Made by a program: the position numbers and the translations under genes
Part shown: one piece after another, positions 11,270 through 50,639 of the stretch
Layout: each line of letters begins with the position of its first letter
How positions within the stretch are numbered: the stretch's first letter is position 1
The notes under the pieces: generated by a model
The model's database searches: none
What the model was told of the DNA's origin: nothing
What the model saw: the letters and a program-made list of their open reading frames with translations, nothing else
Source of the DNA: Patescibacteria group bacterium
GTDB taxonomy: Bacteria; Patescibacteriota; UBA1384; XYA2-FULL-43-10
Direction of reading: 5' to 3'
NCBI GenBank assembly: GCA_041674405.1
Contig: JBAYVT010000002.1
Coordinates: forward strand, 23,158 to 87,157
DNA length: 64,000 nt

Positions 11270-11316
11270 ACAACAAAAAGCCTTGCACTGCCACTCCGGG
11301 AGTGGCAGTGCAAAGT
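11270..11316 (-). terminator. intrinsic terminator: perfect 15-16-bp palindromic stem (ttgcactgccactcc/ggagtggcagtgcaa) followed by a U-tract on the minus-strand transcript
   Basis: Seen in sequence. Confidence 0.6.
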
Positions 11317-14638: not shown

Positions 14639-15838
14639 TTATTTCGTCAAAGTTTTTACCAGGTGGTCAAGAGCCTTTGCTCCCGCATCTTCCTTACTCG
14701 AATCAATTTTTTGGTCTTGAATAATTTTACCTAACATGAGACCAATTTTAACATTTTTGGTAGCCTGTTCGCGCATATCTTTGCGAATATCATCAATTTT
14801 TTTCTTCATATTTTCCAGATATTTTTCGAAACTCATTCCCGAAGATTCTACTTGTCCGCGAAAATGTTCTATCATTCTTTCTGTTTCCTGGATAATCAAT
14901 ATCTCGGGAATGTCAACTTTGAGAAGAGGTAATACTTTTTCGATTACTGAAAGCTCAAGCTCGTTTTTGTATTTCGCATCAGTTTCTTTTTTGAGGCTAT
15001 CCATGACAGCCGATTTTAATTCGGAAAATTTCTTGTGCCCATAATGTTCTGCAAATTTGTCGTCGAGTTCGGGAAGGATGACCTCTTTGAGGTCTTCAAG
15101 TTTAACATTGAATTCTGCTTCCTTGCCGGAAAGTGTTTTCTCGTGATAATCTTTCGGAAATTTGATTTTAAAGGTTTTTTCTTCACCCTTTTTCATCCCC
15201 ACAACTTCATCCTCAAATCCCGGAATCAGATTTCCTTCGCCCAAAATGATCGGGTGATTTTTTGAGCACATTGCATCAACTTTAACGCCCTTCTTAAAAC
15301 CTTCATATGAAATTTCTGCCCGATCTCCCTTTTTTGCCGAGCGTTCAGCATCCTTAAATGTTGCTTTTTGTTTGCGCAAATGTTCTAAAATTTTTTCGAC
15401 ATCAGTTTCTTTTGGTTCTTCTTTTTTTGGTGCTTTCACTTTTAGTTTCGAATAATCCCCAAGCTCAATTTTGGGCATAACATCAATTTCGGCAGTATAT
15501 TCCAAATTGTCCTTAATATCTAGTTCATCGATCGAAAAGTTCGGAGATTTTGTAATTTTGATATCTGGCTGCGATAGTGGCATAATTTTTTCGCTTGCAA
15601 CCACTTCCGGATAACTTCCCCTTACAGCACAATCAATCCCTTCAGAAATGAGGCGATTGTGGCCAGCTGCAGATTCTACAATTTTGTACGGGGCCTTGCC
15701 GGGGCGGAATCCATCAAGCTTCATTCCGGATGCAACTTTTTCGTAAGCTTCACGAAAATATTTTGCAAGCTCTTTGGGTTCAACTAGAACTTCTAGTTTC
15801 ACTCGGCTGTTTTTAAGATTTTCAAGTTTTACCTTCAT
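14639..15838 (-). CDS. tig: trigger factor
   Basis: GFRPGKAP signature. 399 aa with the expected domain order. Confidence 0.85.
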   Translation of the reverse strand: MKVKLENLKNSRVKLEVLVEPKELAKYFREAYEKVASGMKLDGFRPGKAPYKIVESAAGHNRLISEGIDCAVRGSYPEVVASEKIMPLSQPDIKITKSPNFSIDELDIKDNLEYTAEIDVMPKIELGDYSKLKVKAPKKEEPKETDVEKILEHLRKQKATFKDAERSAKKGDRAEISYEGFKKGVKVDAMCSKNHPIILGEGNLIPGFEDEVVGMKKGEEKTFKIKFPKDYHEKTLSGKEAEFNVKLEDLKEVILPELDDKFAEHYGHKKFSELKSAVMDSLKKETDAKYKNELELSVIEKVLPLLKVDIPEILIIQETERMIEHFRGQVESSGMSFEKYLENMKKKIDDIRKDMREQATKNVKIGLMLGKIIQDQKIDSSKEDAGAKALDHLVKTLTK

Positions 15839-15907
15839 AATATTCCCAACAATAAAATAATAATTTACTCGTATAGATTATCATATTAAGACTAGGATTG
15901 AAAGTCT

Positions 15908-15937
15908 GGTAGCACAGGCGGAACCGCCTGTGCTACC
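15908..15937. other. perfect GC-rich hairpin ggtagcacaggcgg-aa-ccgcctgtgctacc
   Basis: Seen in sequence. Lies just 3' (on the minus strand) of the GC-rich micro-ORF. Confidence 0.5.
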
Positions 15938-15961
15938 GACGGCAGCAGAGGGTGTGGGACG

Positions 15962-16114
15962 TTATCCGGGCCAGTTGGCCGGATCGTTGTCGGGGTCGTA
16001 GGTGACTGGCTTAGCCCGTTTGCGGGCATCATTCAGGATGATCAACAGGTCGGCAAACGGCACATCGGGTACTGAGTCCGAAGCTACCTGGTAATCGCCG
16101 GCATAACCACACAT
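15962..16114 (-). CDS. GC-rich 50-aa micro-ORF (MCGYAGDYQVASDSVPDVPFADLLIILNDARKRAKPVTYDPDNDPANWPG), or an ncRNA
   Basis: AGGAGG SD 7 nt upstream of the ATG. Composition differs from its surroundings. Not statistically compelling on its own. Confidence 0.3.
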   Translation of the reverse strand: MCGYAGDYQVASDSVPDVPFADLLIILNDARKRAKPVTYDPDNDPANWPG

Positions 16115-16167
16115 AAAACTACCTCCTGGTCCTTGATTCCCTCTTGCATTTTATATATCACTTTAGA

Positions 16168-17172
16168 TCAATATACGCTATATCCACCAAATTTTTTTAA
16201 TTCAGAAAGCAGAAGCTTTTTATTGCTTTTATCACCGCAGAAAAGCAAACATCCTCCTCCCCCAGCACCACAAGCACGGTGGGAATATCCGTATTTTTCC
16301 GCAATTTTAGCCATCATTTTCATGTTTTTTGTATAATATGCACTTGATAGATCTAGGCGCAAATTCCTATCATTGGCGATTCCTGTTTTGAGCATAGATA
16401 GGTCTTTCCCCAAGATCCCTCGCCAAATATCTTCCGCATTTTTGGCAATCTTCTTAATTAATAATGGATTTTTTTCATATCCAGATCTCATTTGAGAGTT
16501 TAGTTTTCCTGATGATCTCGATTCACCGCTGTAATATACCAGAATATGATTCAACACCCAGTTATATAACGGAGAGTTTTCTTCTCTATGGTCAATCATC
16601 TTCGCTTCTCCATATCCAGGACCACCAAAAGTCATGTAGTTCATTCCTCCGTGCCACGCAGCATAATAATCTTGCTTGCCTCCTAAAATTCCCATCGACA
16701 TTTCAACCAAATAGTTCAATTCGGGAACATTTACACCGGGAATTTCATAAAGTTCGGAAAGTGCCATGATCACTCCAACCCCTACCGCCGAAGAAGTGCC
16801 TAGGCCAGAAGCAGACGGAATGATGCCAACACTGGTAACTTTTATTTCCAATCCATCCGGCTTTAGGTTAAATAACGAAATAAAATGTCGGACAATCTGG
16901 CTAACATTATTTTTTTCTTGTTTGATAAGATCTTCAATACTCCCTTCGATTTTCTCGCCCAAATCAGGAAGTTCGAGTTTAATACCCTTGCCGCCATTCA
17001 GTTTCGCTTCAACTTTGACTTGTACCGGTAAGGCAATATTTACAACCGAGCCACGATCCGCTTTAAGTTTCTTAAGGTAGTAGCTAATATCTGTAGAACC
17101 GCCGGCAATATCTGCACGAACTGGCACGAACAGAGTTACCCTTTTCATCATTTCCTCCTGGATTTCTTCCAT
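16168..17172 (-). CDS. GHMP-family sugar kinase
   Basis: PSASGLGTSSAVGVGV (GHMP motif 2). Confidence 0.7.
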   Translation of the reverse strand: MEEIQEEMMKRVTLFVPVRADIAGGSTDISYYLKKLKADRGSVVNIALPVQVKVEAKLNGGKGIKLELPDLGEKIEGSIEDLIKQEKNNVSQIVRHFISLFNLKPDGLEIKVTSVGIIPSASGLGTSSAVGVGVIMALSELYEIPGVNVPELNYLVEMSMGILGGKQDYYAAWHGGMNYMTFGGPGYGEAKMIDHREENSPLYNWVLNHILVYYSGESRSSGKLNSQMRSGYEKNPLLIKKIAKNAEDIWRGILGKDLSMLKTGIANDRNLRLDLSSAYYTKNMKMMAKIAEKYGYSHRACGAGGGGCLLFCGDKSNKKLLLSELKKFGGYSVY

Positions 17173-18461: not shown

Positions 18462-18499
18462 GAAACTCCTAAAGTGCCTTAATATTTTTGGCCACCTAA

Positions 18500-18537
18500 T
18501 TAAAACAAAAACAAACAGCTGTTTGTTTTTGTTTTAA
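18500..18537 (-). terminator. perfect 38-nt palindrome ttaaaacaaaaacaaacag/ctgtttgtttttgttttaa
   Basis: Seen in sequence downstream of the pfkB-like gene. Flanked by A/T tracts, so possibly bidirectional. Confidence 0.6.
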
Positions 18538-18556
18538 TATTTAGAATATACCCTTA

Positions 18557-37877: not shown

Positions 37878-37906
37878 TTGACATAATTTAAAAATATTGT
37901 TAAAGT
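37878..37906 (+). promoter_or_regulatory. sigma70-like promoter TTGACA-17-TAAAGT driving the ncRNA-tRNA unit
   Basis: Seen in sequence. Confidence 0.4.
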
Positions 37907-37913
37907 CGTTTTT

Positions 37914-38094
37914 GTCGGTTTCGCGGGAGATCGAAACCTGACGGGGCGAGGGTTCAAGGAGTCCGCTCCAGTCTCCCGCCTAATGGTGGCGAAGCGAAAG
38001 CTTATTGCCGAGAGGCAATCGCAAGTAACCAATCTTGCCGCCATCCCAAACATTAAACCGCCCATGGGCGGTTAAGCTTGCCTCTTTGGAGGCA
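37914..38094 (+). ncRNA. unassigned GC-rich structured RNA (~180 nt) co-transcribed with tRNA-Ile
   Basis: Multiple perfect hairpins: ggtttcg/cgaaacc, ggag-tccg-ctcc, attgcc-gaga-ggcaat, ccgccca/tgggcgg, tgcctc-tttg-gaggca. The only track ORF here (76 aa, minus strand) is implausible. Confidence 0.35.
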
Positions 38095-38171
38095 GGGTAC
38101 GTAGCTCAGTTGGATAGAGCGTCTCCCTGATAAGGAGAAGGCCGGGGGTTCAATCCCCTCCGTACCCACCA
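38095..38171 (+). tRNA. tRNA-Ile (anticodon GAU), CCA encoded
   Basis: Acceptor stem GGGTACG/CGTACCC. D-arm GCTCAGTTGGATAGAGC. Anticodon loop CTGATAA. T-arm GGGGGTTCAATCCCCTC. Discriminator A followed by CCA. Confidence 0.85.
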
Positions 38172-47874: not shown

Positions 47875-49254
47875 TTAAATCCTCTGGCAATCAAAAACAA
47901 CAGGATATTTATTATCAAAACAAGCTGAACAAAATCCTGTATTACCAGAAGCTCGATGTAGCCCATCTAGGCTCAAATAATGCACTCCCTCTACTCCGAG
48001 GTATTTTTCCAGTGCCGGCAAATCAAGTTTGGAGGCAATTAATTCCTCTTCTTTTGCCATATCAATGCCATAGTAACACGGGTGTTTTACTGGTGGGCTC
48101 GCTACAATTATTCGGATTTCCTTTGCACCGGCTTCGCGTACCATTTTTACGATTTCCTTAGATGTCGAGCCACGAACAATAGAATCATCAACCAGGCCAA
48201 CTCGCTTGCCATTGATTAATTTTTTTAACACATTTAATTTCAAACGTACTCCCGAGATCCTGACTGAACTTGAAGGATCAATAAAAAGACGTTTTGCTTG
48301 GGGTGTTTTAATGATTCCCCTGCCATATGAGACACCCGAGGCGCTGTGAAATCCAATTGCCGATGCGATTCCTGAGTCTGGAATTGGAACAATAATATCT
48401 AGCTTCTTTTTTAATATCTGATTTTCTTCAAATAAAATTTTCCCTAATTTATGGCGAAACATTTCATTCGGAGTACCGTTCAAAATACTATCCGGCCTTG
48501 ATAAATATATTTTCTCAAAAACACAAAAACTAACCTTACTTCCTCCATGCAAATATTTACTGGATATTATCTTTCCACTGGAGAAAACTAGCATAGTGCC
48601 CGCCCCAACCTCCTTTATATTTTTTGCACCCATTTGATCCAGAGCACAAGTTTCAGAAGCAAGCATAAAAATAGTTTCTTCGTTAGTTTTTGCCCTCCCA
48701 TAAAAAAGAGGCCTGATTCCTTTCGGATCACGTACAGCGATTAATTTTTTAGCGGTTAAAACAAGAAGAGAAAAGGATCCACAAATTCGATTACAAGTTT
48801 CAGCGACTGCTTGTTCAATAGTTTTTTCATTTGAATGCGCAATCAACGATGCAATTAATTCTGTGTCGCTATCTCCTGATAACTTAATTCGGCGGCTTAT
48901 CATTTCTTGGCGTAATTTAGAACTATCAATATTGCCGTTATGAACAACTGAAACATGATATTTTCCTCTTTTTTCAACTGGCTGGGCATTTTCTATAACT
49001 GATCCTCCGGTTGTCGAATAACGATTTTGCCCGACTGCAATATTGCCGGTAAGCGGAGTAATAGTTTCTTGGCGAAAAATTTCGCTTACCAGTCCTTGTT
49101 TTTTGTATGTCTTGATTCTTTTGCCGTTTGATACCGAAATTCCAGCAGATTCTTGTCCCCGGCCCTGAATACTCTGAAGACCAATAACAAGAAGGCTTGC
49201 CAACATGAATGAATCCTTATTTTTTTCGGATATCGCTCCAACTATTCCACACAT
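47875..49254 (-). CDS. purF: amidophosphoribosyltransferase
   Basis: N-terminal MCGIVG (Ntn Cys). PRTase motif VVLVDDSIVRGSTS. Confidence 0.8.
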   Translation of the reverse strand: MCGIVGAISEKNKDSFMLASLLVIGLQSIQGRGQESAGISVSNGKRIKTYKKQGLVSEIFRQETITPLTGNIAVGQNRYSTTGGSVIENAQPVEKRGKYHVSVVHNGNIDSSKLRQEMISRRIKLSGDSDTELIASLIAHSNEKTIEQAVAETCNRICGSFSLLVLTAKKLIAVRDPKGIRPLFYGRAKTNEETIFMLASETCALDQMGAKNIKEVGAGTMLVFSSGKIISSKYLHGGSKVSFCVFEKIYLSRPDSILNGTPNEMFRHKLGKILFEENQILKKKLDIIVPIPDSGIASAIGFHSASGVSYGRGIIKTPQAKRLFIDPSSSVRISGVRLKLNVLKKLINGKRVGLVDDSIVRGSTSKEIVKMVREAGAKEIRIIVASPPVKHPCYYGIDMAKEEELIASKLDLPALEKYLGVEGVHYLSLDGLHRASGNTGFCSACFDNKYPVVFDCQRI

Positions 49255-49436: not shown

Positions 49437-49463
49437 TTGACAAAACTACCCTTATGTTATAAT
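49437..49463 (+). promoter_or_regulatory. near-consensus sigma70 promoter TTGACA-15nt-TGtTATAAT (extended -10)
   Basis: Seen in sequence. Followed by AGGAGG at 49501-49506 and the ATG at 49509. Confidence 0.55.
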
Positions 49464-49508
49464 ATTCCAAGTTGGACTCATACACCGACATACAGGCTAC
49501 AGGAGGAG

Positions 49509-50102
49509 ATGTTCGTGATCGACAAAGTTAGAGAGTTCAAACCATGGGAGAAGCCGAGGGCTGACGGGAAGCACAGCATCAGCTTCTTGATCGGGTTTCG
49601 TGCCGTACTTGCGATCCCGATCCAGCACTATGACGCCGTTCTCGGCGGTCTCTACTGCGTCGCCGTCCTCCTGCTTAGAGAGGATGGGGACCATGAGATC
49701 AGAGACCGGTCGAGCGGGCTCTTGGAAATCTTGGCAGGCCGAGAACAGGATAACCTGCCACTTTCCGATCCGGCCAAGCTCGAGATGTTGGTCGGGGTCC
49801 TGTCTTCGATCTCATCCAACTCGACCGCCTACCGGCTGTACAGGAACACGGCAACCCGCAGGGTCGTGATCGTCCGCGAGGAAGGCGAAATCGGCGAAGG
49901 GGCTACAGAGAAACCTGAGAAAAGACCAGCAGGCATCGCTGCCTGGTCCGTCGAAAGGTTCAATGAATGTCTCGCTCGTGGCCACCACCGGTTCGAGGGA
50001 CGCATTCTGGTGAACAACCGAGGGGGCCAGCCTTACGAGCTGATGGTGTGCACTGACTGCAGAGTCACGATCGCAGCGATGCAAGTGATCCCGGGCAAAT
50101 AG
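49509..50102 (+). CDS. island ORF1, 197-aa hypothetical protein (two hydrophobic segments plus a soluble C-terminal part)
   Basis: A long stop-free ORF in GC-rich sequence with a strong SD. The track ORF starts at 49437, but that ATG lies inside the promoter. Confidence 0.55.
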   Translation: MFVIDKVREFKPWEKPRADGKHSISFLIGFRAVLAIPIQHYDAVLGGLYCVAVLLLREDGDHEIRDRSSGLLEILAGREQDNLPLSDPAKLEMLVGVLSSISSNSTAYRLYRNTATRRVVIVREEGEIGEGATEKPEKRPAGIAAWSVERFNECLARGHHRFEGRILVNNRGGQPYELMVCTDCRVTIAAMQVIPGK

Positions 50103-50165: not shown

Positions 50166-50246
50166 ACAGCAATATTTTTGACAGCGGTATATATCAAGTG
50201 GTAAGTCTAAAATAGATCGTATTACTTCCGCATCGGGGTGATTTTG

Positions 50247-50639
50247 ATGGGAAGTTCGTCAGGTCGGCGTCGACGCCCGTCTTCGGTATGGAAGCAAGCA
50301 TACCGCGCGAATGGTAAAGCTCACAAGCTCACCAAGTCGGGCGAAGACGAGAAGGCTGCCGAGGCGTTTTACCAGAAGGTAGGCTGTGTCTGCGAGACAT
50401 CGCTTACCCCAGGCTTTACGCAATGGCAATGGGATCCTGTCGTAGAAGCCGTCTCGGTATCTCTAGCACACCCGCCGAAGAAAGAACGGCACAAGCGACT
50501 CCATGTTCCTCCAGACGTACTGGAGGAATACATCAGAGGGAACGGCTTTTCAAGCCGCGAAAGGAACTTCCTTCTGAAGCGCCTTCGGCAAGTACTTCGG
50601 TACCGAGAGAAAGGCGCTCCCCAACCTTACGTTCGGTAG
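50247..50639 (+). CDS. island ORF2, ~131-aa very basic hypothetical protein (MGSSSGRRRRPSS...KRLRQVLRYREK)
   Basis: Stop-free in GC-rich sequence. TTGACA at about 50176 upstream. Weak SD (ggggtg). Confidence 0.45.
   Translation: MGSSSGRRRRPSSVWKQAYRANGKAHKLTKSGEDEKAAEAFYQKVGCVCETSLTPGFTQWQWDPVVEAVSVSLAHPPKKERHKRLHVPPDVLEEYIRGNGFSSRERNFLLKRLRQVLRYREKGAPQPYVR

What the first reader, a model, noticed from the sequence alone, without database searches (positions are those of the whole stretch)
15908..16114. Second small GC-rich patch: a 50-aa ORF with AGGAGG SD followed by a perfect 14-bp hairpin
Between tig and the GHMP kinase gene (both AT-rich) lies about 210 nt of GC-rich sequence. On the minus strand it encodes MCGYAGDYQVASDSVPDVPFADLLIILNDARKRAKPVTYDPDNDPANWPG, with AGGAGG 7 nt upstream of the ATG. 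It is followed by the perfect hairpin ggtagcacaggcgg-tt-ccgcctgtgctacc. Its composition resembles the 49.5-50.7 kb island and not the host. It could be a micro-protein gene (not Cys-rich, acidic), a small ncRNA, or a remnant of the same foreign source as the island.
Basis: partly seen in the sequence, partly recalled or inferred. Interest (0 to 1): 0.5.

Follow-up and report, generated by a model that had tools for sequence, protein, structure and literature searches.

The report
Orphan micro-gene in a variable slot
The GC-rich patch is real and is most likely a species-specific 50-codon orphan gene with its own ribosome-binding site and end hairpin, sitting in a slot before the trigger-factor gene where related CPR bacteria carry other small genes or nothing; it is a modest curiosity.

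Summary
There is a ~225-nt GC-rich patch (peak 0.66 against a window mean of 0.40, the highest in 64 kb). It holds a 50-codon minus-strand ORF with AGGAGG 7 nt upstream of the ATG, followed by a perfect 14-bp hairpin. Three independent assemblies are 100% identical, so it is not a chimera.

The peptide is a strict ORFan: only itself among 5.8 billion clusters and 1.84 billion HMMER-scanned representatives. It has no Pfam, NCBIfam, PHROG, Rfam, phage, plasmid or viral match.

Eight closer relatives (tig 60-74% identical) keep NTP-transferase-[slot]-tig-MFS-clpP. The slot content differs:
- an ACP-like gene in four relatives
- a 47-aa ORFan
- a 121-aa ORFan
- a tRNA-like gene
- nothing (L167)

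Occupied protein slots share one architecture: a promoter-like element near -46, a strong SD, a small ORF that is usually GC-rich, and a hairpin abutting the conserved tig promoter. The window's content is unrelated to all of them.

Best reading: a lineage-specific, probably horizontally acquired micro-protein gene whose hairpin ends the transcription unit. The ncRNA reading is unsupported. The "same source as the 49.5-kb island" reading is untestable and weakened, because the island ORF is conserved in place in a sister lineage. This is an ordinary kind of feature.

The parts
15905..16131 (.). GC-rich patch, the lineage-specific insert. The tig-side boundary is set by where conserved host sequence resumes.
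   Evidence: GC 0.60 over 15900-16099 with a 100-nt peak of 0.66. blastn and alignment A2 show conserved tig-promoter sequence resuming at about 15904-15907.
16152..16160 (-). Extended -10-like element TGATATATA, 46 nt upstream of the ORF50 start codon, in AT-rich sequence just after the GHMP stop codon. A candidate own promoter (inferred).
   Evidence: A similar element sits at -46/-47 in the slot cassettes of L165, L166 and L170, and at -56 in L168. The consensus -35/-10 scan did not call it.
16122..16127 (-). Shine-Dalgarno AGGAGG, 7 nt before the ATG.
   Evidence: Direct reading. The same perfect AGGAGG precedes the GHMP and SOD gene starts.
15962..16114 (-). ORF50: 50 codons plus stop. 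An acidic peptide (8 Asp, 2 Lys, 2 Arg) with one predicted helix at residues 20-33.
   Evidence: GC1/2/3 0.63/0.43/0.65; non-host codon usage; AlphaFold mean pLDDT 73. It is an ORFan.
15908..15937 (-). Perfect 14-bp GC-rich stem-loop, 24 nt after the ORF50 stop and 4 nt before the tig promoter's -35-like hexamer. A putative terminator or 3'-end stabiliser without a U-tract.
   Evidence: dG about -30 kcal/mol, z -6. The terminator scan finds none because there is no T-run. Hairpins at the same position in relatives do carry T-runs.
15877..15903 (-). Conserved tig promoter: TTTCAA (15903..15898), a 15-nt spacer, then GATAAT (15882..15877). This is host sequence shared with relatives, including the empty-slot locus.
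   Evidence: Alignment A2 has invariant columns CTTT.A.T ... T.TG.TA.T. blastn matches to L174, L167 and L166.
16168..17172 (-). GHMP kinase gene (host-like GC 0.40). It is the upstream neighbour, with no terminator between it and ORF50. It is absent from the eight closer relatives and present in L004.
14639..15838 (-). tig (trigger factor), the downstream neighbour and the anchor used for comparative analysis.

Best explanation
The patch is a small, self-contained, lineage-specific gene cassette sitting in a variable slot between a sugar-metabolism operon (PGK-FBA-PfkB-ASCH-NTP transferase-GHMP kinase) and the trigger-factor gene of a CPR/Patescibacteria genome. On the minus strand it reads: an extended -10-like element just after the GHMP stop; a roughly 30-nt leader; a consensus AGGAGG SD; a 50-codon ORF for an acidic, proline-rich peptide with one predicted amphipathic helix; then 24 nt later a 14-bp GC stem-loop that directly abuts the -35 region of the conserved tig promoter. 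I infer that the ORF is translated. It could be transcribed from its own promoter or by read-through from the GHMP operon, since there is no terminator between them. I also infer that the hairpin ends or stabilises this transcript and insulates the tig promoter. Its GC and codon usage are foreign to the host, so it was most likely acquired horizontally, or is kept GC-rich by the same unknown process that affects other lineage-specific genes in this clade. It either replaced or was added where relatives carry an ACP-like gene. Shown: the anatomy, the composition, the orphan status, the slot variability and the boundary. Inferred: expression, terminator function and horizontal origin. The peptide's biochemical function is unknown.
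For: Anatomy and GC. Coding-type periodicity, GC1/2/3 = 0.63/0.43/0.65 against host GC3 of 0.34-0.38. Codon usage unlike the host (0.2% of host windows as extreme) and nearer the island ORFs. Identical in three independent assemblies. Conserved synteny NTP-transferase-[slot]-tig-MFS-clpP with variable slot content: an ACP-like gene in L165, L166, L171 and L172; a 47-aa ORFan in L170; a 121-aa ORFan in L168; a tRNA-like gene in L173; empty in L167. More distant relatives carry other 184-208-aa genes there. Shared architecture, with the promoter-like element at -46/-47, a strong SD, a small ORF of GC 0.49-0.57 (one exception, L171, at 0.39) and a hairpin before the tig promoter. The boundary lies exactly at the hairpin base, where the conserved tig promoter resumes. 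This host uses perfect GC hairpins as terminators elsewhere (I7 at 11283-11313 after the M29 peptidase gene, with a T-run). AlphaFold gives a confident helix at residues 20-33.
Against: No homolog exists anywhere, so there is no evidence of purifying selection. All available copies are identical, so pN/pS cannot be computed. A 50-codon open frame at 60% GC has about a 20% chance per frame. AGGAGG is not enriched in the window, and about 14% of random AGGAGG sites would have an ATG 4-11 nt downstream (plus my estimate). The codon-aligned antisense frame is also largely open with a similar periodicity. The hairpin has no U-tract. The promoter-like element does not pass a standard -35/-10 consensus scan. 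No donor was found.
Confidence: 0.55

Rival explanations
1. The patch is a non-functional remnant: a decaying fragment of foreign or formerly coding DNA left in a recombination-prone slot. The 50-codon frame would be fortuitous. Only the hairpin would be functional, as the 3' end of the upstream GHMP operon.
For: Strict orphan status. The ORF length is not significant at this GC. The antisense frame is also open. The slot clearly turns over rapidly. There is no terminator between GHMP and the hairpin, so the hairpin is needed by the operon regardless.
Against: The consensus SD is intact at ideal spacing with an ATG start. Coding periodicity is present in the SD-linked frame. The frame ends 24 nt before the hairpin, as in the bona fide slot genes of relatives. 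There is no similarity to the ancestral ACP-like occupant in any frame, so it is not a remnant of that gene. Streamlined CPR genomes rarely keep ~200 nt of junk (general knowledge).
Confidence: 0.27
2. The patch encodes a small structured non-coding RNA, and the ORF is incidental.
For: In AT-rich genomes, intergenic GC-rich patches are often structured RNAs, for example the region at 37.9-38.2 kb with tRNA-Ile. The whole patch folds better than shuffles (z -5.5 on minus, -4.6 on plus).
Against: The z-score comes almost entirely from the 30-nt hairpin. Without it, z is -0.9 (plus) and -1.2 to -2.6 (minus). No Rfam family matches at E<=10 apart from hairpin-shaped chance hits far below gathering score. 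No homolog exists for a covariation test. The periodic codon-position GC is not expected of an RNA gene.
Confidence: 0.08
3. The patch and the 49.5-50.7 kb island are two pieces of DNA from one foreign donor.
For: Similar GC (0.58-0.60 against 0.55-0.56) and a similar codon-position profile. ORF50's codon usage lies between the host and island distributions, nearer the island. Both are essentially orphans.
Against: No shared sequence. The island's ORF221 has a 56%-identical ortholog at the same gatC-...-ligA position in a sister lineage, still GC-rich (L164). It is therefore an old, vertically inherited, lineage-specific gene and not a recent import. Slot genes in other relatives are also GC-rich but unrelated to each other, so high GC is a general property of lineage-specific genes in this clade and not a marker of one donor. 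The 153-nt sample is too short for a reliable compositional assignment.
Confidence: 0.1
4. The patch is an assembly artefact: a chimeric join or a contaminating read cluster.
For: An abrupt compositional change in a metagenome-assembled genome.
Against: Contigs from three pipelines (ENA k141/MEGAHIT, Logan, JGI), plus an NCBI MAG record, carry the identical sequence with identical flanks.
Confidence: 0.02

Closest known systems
Orphan (ORFan) small protein genes, or horizontally acquired genes, in variable genomic slots flanked by conserved core genes
   Same: Atypical GC and codon usage, no homologs, and a position between conserved syntenic genes. The slot has different content in each related lineage and is empty in one. 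HGT and genomic islands are documented in Patescibacteria (PMC12455944).
   Different: It is very small (about 225 nt, one 50-codon gene). There is no integrase, transposase, tRNA target or flanking direct repeats. No donor was identified.
Intrinsic (Rho-independent) terminators
   Same: A GC-rich perfect stem-loop a short distance after a stop codon and immediately before the next gene's promoter. Host genes and the slot cassettes of relatives end in similar hairpins.
   Different: There is no U-tract. The tail is AGACTTTCAAT, which is conserved tig-promoter sequence. The nominal loop is only 2 nt; ViennaRNA opens one pair to give a 4-nt loop.
ACP-like (PF00550 PP-binding) small gene occupying the same slot in relatives L165, L166, L171 and L172
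   Same: The same position and orientation, the same promoter-SD-ORF-hairpin layout, and elevated GC in three of the four.
   Different: No similarity at DNA, six-frame or HMM level. ORF50 lacks the DSL phosphopantetheine-attachment motif seen in those proteins (direct reading of the alignment).
Integron gene cassettes (ORF plus attC)
   Same: A short ORF followed by an inverted repeat, in a locus where different ORFs alternate between lineages.
   Different: The repeat is a perfect 14-bp palindrome without the RYYYAAC/GTTRRRY core sites or extrahelical bases (direct reading). The hairpins of the different cassettes share no sequence. No integrase lies within +-10 kb (Pfam list). There is one cassette per locus, not an array.

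Membership tests
Any Rfam RNA family | Covariance-model score at or above the family's gathering threshold | tested here: not met
   The best hit is mir-3179 at 22.5 bits against a gathering score of 90, a hairpin-shaped chance match. The whole-window gathering scan finds only tRNA-Ile.
Any curated protein family (Pfam, NCBIfam, PHROGs) | HMM score above the curated cut-off | tested here: not met
   The best is DUF6373 at 13.9 bits against a cut-off of 25. The antisense and alternative frames are also negative.
Intrinsic terminator | GC-rich stem-loop located just downstream of a stop codon | tested here: met
   A 14-bp perfect stem with 10 G-C pairs, 24 nt after the TAA of ORF50; dG about -30 kcal/mol, z -6.3.
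Intrinsic terminator | U-tract (at least 5 T in 8 nt) immediately 3' of the stem | tested here: not met
   One search finds 0 terminator-like sites in 15600-16400. The tail is AGACTTTCAATCC. The equivalent hairpins in L165, L168, L170 and L172 do have T-runs.
Intrinsic terminator | Transcripts end at the hairpin | not testable with these tools
   Needs RNA-seq or Term-seq from the source community.
Integron cassette / attC | Imperfect inverted repeat with R''/R' core sites (RYYYAAC ... GTTRRRY) and extrahelical bases | tested here: not met
   Direct reading of 15900-15945: a perfect palindrome with no GTTRRRY at either end.
Integron cassette / attC | Adjacent intI tyrosine recombinase and an array of cassettes | tested here: not met
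   The Pfam annotation of all called genes within +-10 kb shows no integrase or recombinase. The slot holds a single cassette.
MITE / IS remnant | Terminal inverted repeats, target-site duplication and multiple copies | tested here: not met
   blastn of the patch against the window finds only itself. There are no terminal inverted repeats. Only a 5-nt CTGGT occurs near both edges, which chance easily explains (direct reading). Only 64 kb of the genome could be checked for further copies.
ACP-like PP-binding slot gene of relatives | Similarity to the PP-binding profile or the relatives' sequences; DSL Ser attachment motif | tested here: not met
   An HMM built from the four slot ACP-like proteins was run against all six frames of the window slot: best E = 5.7 with a negative bit score. 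blastn and tblastx found nothing within the patch.
Protein-coding gene (generic) | SD plus start codon, an open frame and codon-position compositional periodicity | tested here: met
Protein-coding gene (generic) | Conservation under purifying selection, or direct evidence of translation | not testable with these tools
   There are no homologs and all copies are identical. No expression data are available.

The most novel reading that the evidence does not exclude
The slot upstream of tig could be a dedicated cassette-exchange locus in this CPR clade. Small GC-rich genes, each with its own promoter-like element, strong SD and terminal hairpin, would be swapped in and out by a recombination mechanism that acts at the hairpin / tig-promoter junction. 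The system would be integron-like but have no local integrase. ORF50 would be one of a diverse pool of fast-evolving small acidic effectors, possibly used in the episymbiotic interaction with the host cell.
Probability: 0.08. Interest if true: 0.6.

Novelty: new member of a known kind. Interest (0 to 1): 0.27.

Why it matters
If ORF50 is translated, it adds one more species-specific micro-protein to the large pool of uncharacterised CPR genes, which is a small gain on its own. The comparative result is more useful. The NTP-transferase/tig junction is a turnover hotspot whose occupants share an expression architecture and are usually GC-rich. The larger GC-rich "island" in the same window is vertically conserved, not recently imported. 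This cautions against reading every GC-rich ORFan in AT-rich CPR genomes as fresh foreign DNA. It also gives a defined locus for studying how streamlined symbiont genomes gain and lose small genes.

Tried and rejected
- **Known ncRNA:** two Rfam scans gave nothing.
- **Known protein family:** Pfam, PHROGs and NCBIfam gave nothing for ORF50 or for the overlapping and antisense frames.
- **Homologs:** the word-indexed search of 5.8 billion clusters and the exhaustive phmmer search of 1.84 billion representatives returned only the protein itself.
- **Donor search:** blastn and tblastn against phages and plasmids, plus viral-contig scans with the hairpin pattern and the peptide, gave only chance-level hits.
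- **Shared sequence with the 49.5-kb island:** none.
- **GTDB representatives and JGI metagenomes anchored on tig:** the nearest were only 46-57% identical and their slots were unrelated.
- **Conserved structured RNA upstream of tig in relatives:** I suspected this from their GC-rich blocks, but Rfam and ARAGORN found nothing and the blocks are protein-coding.
- **Patch as a degraded ACP-like gene:** rejected.
- **ORF50 orthologous to the 47-aa acidic ORF of L170:** they share the slot, a similar N-terminus (M(S)CG..DY), and similar size and charge. The similarity is not significant (BLASTP E = 0.28; shuffle p = 0.14; nucleotide alignments of UTR and CDS at z <= 0.5, while the positive control L165 vs L166 gives z = 7.2).
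- **Assembly chimera:** rejected.
- **Hairpin as an operator for tig:** rejected as the primary reading, because each relative has a different hairpin at that position, most with T-runs.
- **AlphaFold model:** one helix only, too small for a meaningful fold search, so none was run.

Full report
**1. Observation**

The window is AT-rich (mean GC 0.403). By the source's own naming it comes from a Patescibacteria/CPR MAG.

Between the trigger-factor gene (14639..15838, minus) and a GHMP-kinase gene (16168..17172, minus) lies a 329-nt intergenic region. About 225 nt of it (roughly 15905-16131) is GC-rich.
- GC is 0.60 over 15900-16099.
- The 100-nt maximum is 0.66, the highest value in the 64-kb window and 3.8 sd above the mean.
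- Among intergenic regions, only this one and the tRNA-Ile region at 37.7-38.3 kb exceed 0.6.

Then, 24 nt after the stop, comes a perfect 14-bp inverted repeat with 2 nt between the arms (15937..15908). About 0.005 such repeats are expected by chance in 64 kb.

Contigs from three different assembly pipelines (ENA, Logan, JGI) are 100% identical to the window over 6.6-20 kb spanning the patch. The junctions are therefore real.

**2. What it is not**

- *Known RNA.* No Rfam family reaches threshold on either strand. The only hits are hairpin-shaped matches to miRNA models at about a quarter of their gathering scores.
- *Structured RNA beyond the hairpin.* The patch as a whole folds better than shuffles (z -5.5 and -4.6), but that comes from the 30-nt hairpin alone (z about -6). 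Without it, z is -0.9 on the plus strand and -1.2 to -2.6 on the minus strand.
- *Known protein.* ORF50, the overlapping 46-aa ORF and the antisense open frame match no Pfam, NCBIfam or PHROG family.
- *Member of any detectable protein family.* The peptide is a strict ORFan. The word-indexed search of 5.8 billion clusters and the exhaustive phmmer pass over 1.84 billion representatives both returned only the protein itself.
- *Phage, plasmid or viral DNA.* blastn and tblastn against phages and plasmids, and viral-contig scans, gave nothing above chance.
- *Repeat or mobile element.* The patch shares no sequence with the rest of the window, including the 49.5-50.7 kb island. No integrase or transposase lies within +-10 kb (Pfam list).

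**3. Coding signal**

In the ORF50 frame, GC at codon positions 1/2/3 is 0.63/0.43/0.65. That is the pattern of a gene from a ~58% GC background. Host genes show 0.43-0.53/0.27-0.39/0.34-0.38, and the two island ORFs show 0.57-0.63/0.43-0.46/0.57-0.68.

With a codon log-likelihood ratio (island against host), only 0.2% of host 49-codon windows are as island-like as ORF50.

Caveats:
- A 50-codon open frame has about a 20% chance per frame at this GC (my estimate from composition).
- AGGAGG is not enriched in the window (21 sites against 18.8 expected), although it serves as the SD for GHMP, SOD and the island ORF.
- The codon-aligned antisense frame is also mostly open.

AlphaFold without an alignment gives mean pLDDT 73, with one confident helix (residues 20-33, FADLLIILNDARKR) and coil elsewhere. 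The peptide has 8 Asp, no Glu, 2 Lys, 2 Arg and 6 Pro (direct count).

**4. Comparative context, the decisive part**

GTDB species representatives and JGI metagenomes only offered relatives with tig at 46-57% identity. In those, the position just upstream of tig holds unrelated 184-208-aa genes of elevated GC (L005, L006, L008), or GHMP plus a 600-nt GC-rich stretch (L004). None is similar to the patch.

A search of the large protein collection with tig found closer relatives at 60-74% identity, and I fetched eight loci. All keep NTP-transferase-[slot]-tig-MFS-clpP. None has GHMP or ORF50. The slot holds:

| Locus | tig identity | Slot content |
|---|---|---|
| L165 | 74% | 85-aa PP-binding/ACP-like gene |
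| L166 | 72% | 83-aa PP-binding/ACP-like gene |
| L167 | 71% | nothing: 98 nt from the NTP-transferase stop to the tig ATG |
| L168 | 65% | 121-aa ORFan |
| L170 | 64% | 47-aa acidic ORFan |
| L171 | 62% | 99-aa ACP-like gene |
| L172 | 60% | 89-aa ACP-like gene |
| L173 | 61% | atypical tRNA-like gene on the opposite strand |

The ACP-like gene is thus the commonest occupant and probably the ancestral one. The slot turns over repeatedly.

The occupied protein slots share one layout:
- an extended -10-like TGnTAnnn(T/A) element at -46/-47 from the start codon (window, L165, L166, L170) or at -56 (L168);
- a strong SD (AGGAGGT or GGGGGT);
- a small ORF with GC of 0.49-0.57 in a 0.39-0.43 genome (L171 is the exception at 0.39);
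- a GC-rich hairpin, usually with a T-run;
- then the tig promoter.

Alignment A2 and blastn show where conserved host sequence resumes. The conserved block is CTTTnAAT, 15 nt, then (TGT)GATAAT, which I read as the tig -35 and extended -10 elements. It resumes 4 nt after the window's hairpin, at about 15904-15907, and is present in the empty-slot locus too. The hairpin is therefore the last element of the variable cassette and abuts the tig promoter.

**5. Tests of homology between cassettes**

The patch is not a degraded ACP-like gene. blastn, tblastx and an HMM of the four ACP-like proteins against all six frames were all negative.

ORF50 and the 47-aa ORF of L170 look alike superficially: same slot, M(S)CG..DY start, acidic, similar length. 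The similarity is not significant.
- BLASTP E = 0.28 and shuffle p = 0.14.
- Nucleotide alignments of the leader and the CDS give z <= 0.5, whereas the positive control L165 vs L166 gives z = 7.2.

I therefore do not claim orthology.

**6. The island**

The island's 221-aa ORF (called as 195 aa) has a single homolog, 56% identical, on Logan contig L164.
- That contig is from a sister lineage (about 72-75% nucleotide identity in gatC and in the ORF).
- It reads gatC, ORF, conserved terminator hairpin, ligA.
- The ORF is still at GC 0.50-0.64 between AT-rich flanks.

The island's main gene is therefore a vertically inherited, persistently GC-rich, lineage-specific gene and not a fresh import. 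purF and the 133-aa ORF are extra in the window relative to L164. This weakens the idea that high GC marks a single recent donor shared with the patch. Elevated GC seems to be a general feature of lineage-specific small genes in this clade, for reasons unknown.

**7. Mechanism proposed**

*Shown:* the cassette anatomy, foreign-type composition, orphan status, a variable slot including an empty site, and the boundary at the hairpin.

*Inferred:*
- ORF50 is transcribed from the -46 element and/or by read-through from the GHMP operon, since there is no terminator between them.
- It is translated from the consensus SD.
- The stem-loop terminates or stabilises the 3' end and insulates the tig promoter.

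This host uses a perfect 15-bp GC hairpin plus a T-run after the M29 peptidase gene (I7), so such hairpins are its normal terminators. The patch hairpin lacks the T-run because the conserved tig-promoter sequence begins there.

The peptide's function is unknown. An acidic one-helix micro-protein is all that can be said.

**8. Verdict**

The micro-protein reading is the best supported (about 0.55). A non-functional remnant with a functional hairpin is the main rival (about 0.27). The ncRNA reading (about 0.08) and an artefact (about 0.02) are unlikely. A common source with the island is unsupported.

This is a new member of a known kind: an orphan small gene in a variable slot. Interest is low to moderate. 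The slot's recurrent turnover with a shared architecture is the only aspect worth a follow-up.

Noticed in passing
window 37900-38094 (+), just upstream of tRNA-Ile 38095-38171: About 190 nt of GC-rich intergenic sequence (100-nt GC up to 0.61-0.63) follows a TTGACA-type promoter-like site and is contiguous with tRNA-Ile(GAT). It folds with z = -3.6 against shuffles but matches no Rfam family at gathering score or at E<=1. It may be an unclassified structured RNA co-transcribed with the tRNA. A hairpin plus T-run follows the tRNA.
   Followed up: partly
window 49437-50102 and locus L164 413-982: The island's 221-aa ORF has one homolog (56% aa identity) at the same gatC-...-ligA position in a sister lineage, still GC-rich (0.50-0.64) between AT-rich flanks and with a conserved terminator hairpin (86% identity). 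The 'island' gene is vertically conserved, not a recent import. purF (47875-49254) and the 133-aa ORF (50238-50639) are absent from that interval in L164.
   Followed up: partly
loci L165, L166, L171, L172 (slot upstream of tig): An 83-99-aa PP-binding (ACP-like) gene, transcribed on its own with a promoter-like element and terminator, is the commonest occupant of the NTP-transferase/tig slot in relatives. Its GC ranges from host-like (0.39, L171) to 0.56 (L166).
   Followed up: partly
L170 4707-4850 and L170 3248-3490 (minus): L170 has a 47-aa acidic Cys-containing ORFan (MSCGPCDDY...) in the tig slot. It also has a second GC-rich 80-aa ORFan on the opposite strand between PfkB and NTP-transferase, where the window has an ASCH-domain gene. 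The 80-aa ORF gave a marginal alignment score to ORF50 (shuffle p = 0.012 before correction for five comparisons), which I regard as chance.
   Followed up: partly
L173 2583-2658 (minus) and L173 6554-6922: In L173 the tig slot holds an atypical tRNA-like gene (ARAGORN: tRNA-???, two-base anticodon call). Downstream of clpP there is a gene with 23S_rRNA_IVP/bAvd Pfam hits, a family associated with diversity-generating retroelements.
   Followed up: no
window 18499-18538: A perfect 20+20-nt AT-rich palindrome (ATTAAAACAAAAACAAACAG/CTGTTTGTTTTTGTTTTAAT, no spacer) lies in the intergenic region between PfkB and the ASCH-domain gene. It is probably a bidirectional terminator or a protein-binding site.
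   Followed up: no
window 16168-17172: The GHMP-kinase gene (host-like GC, overlapping the NTP-transferase gene by 25 nt) is absent from all eight closer relatives (tig 60-74% identical). It is present, 49% identical, in the more distant L004. This patchy distribution suggests gain, loss or transfer within the clade.
   Followed up: partly
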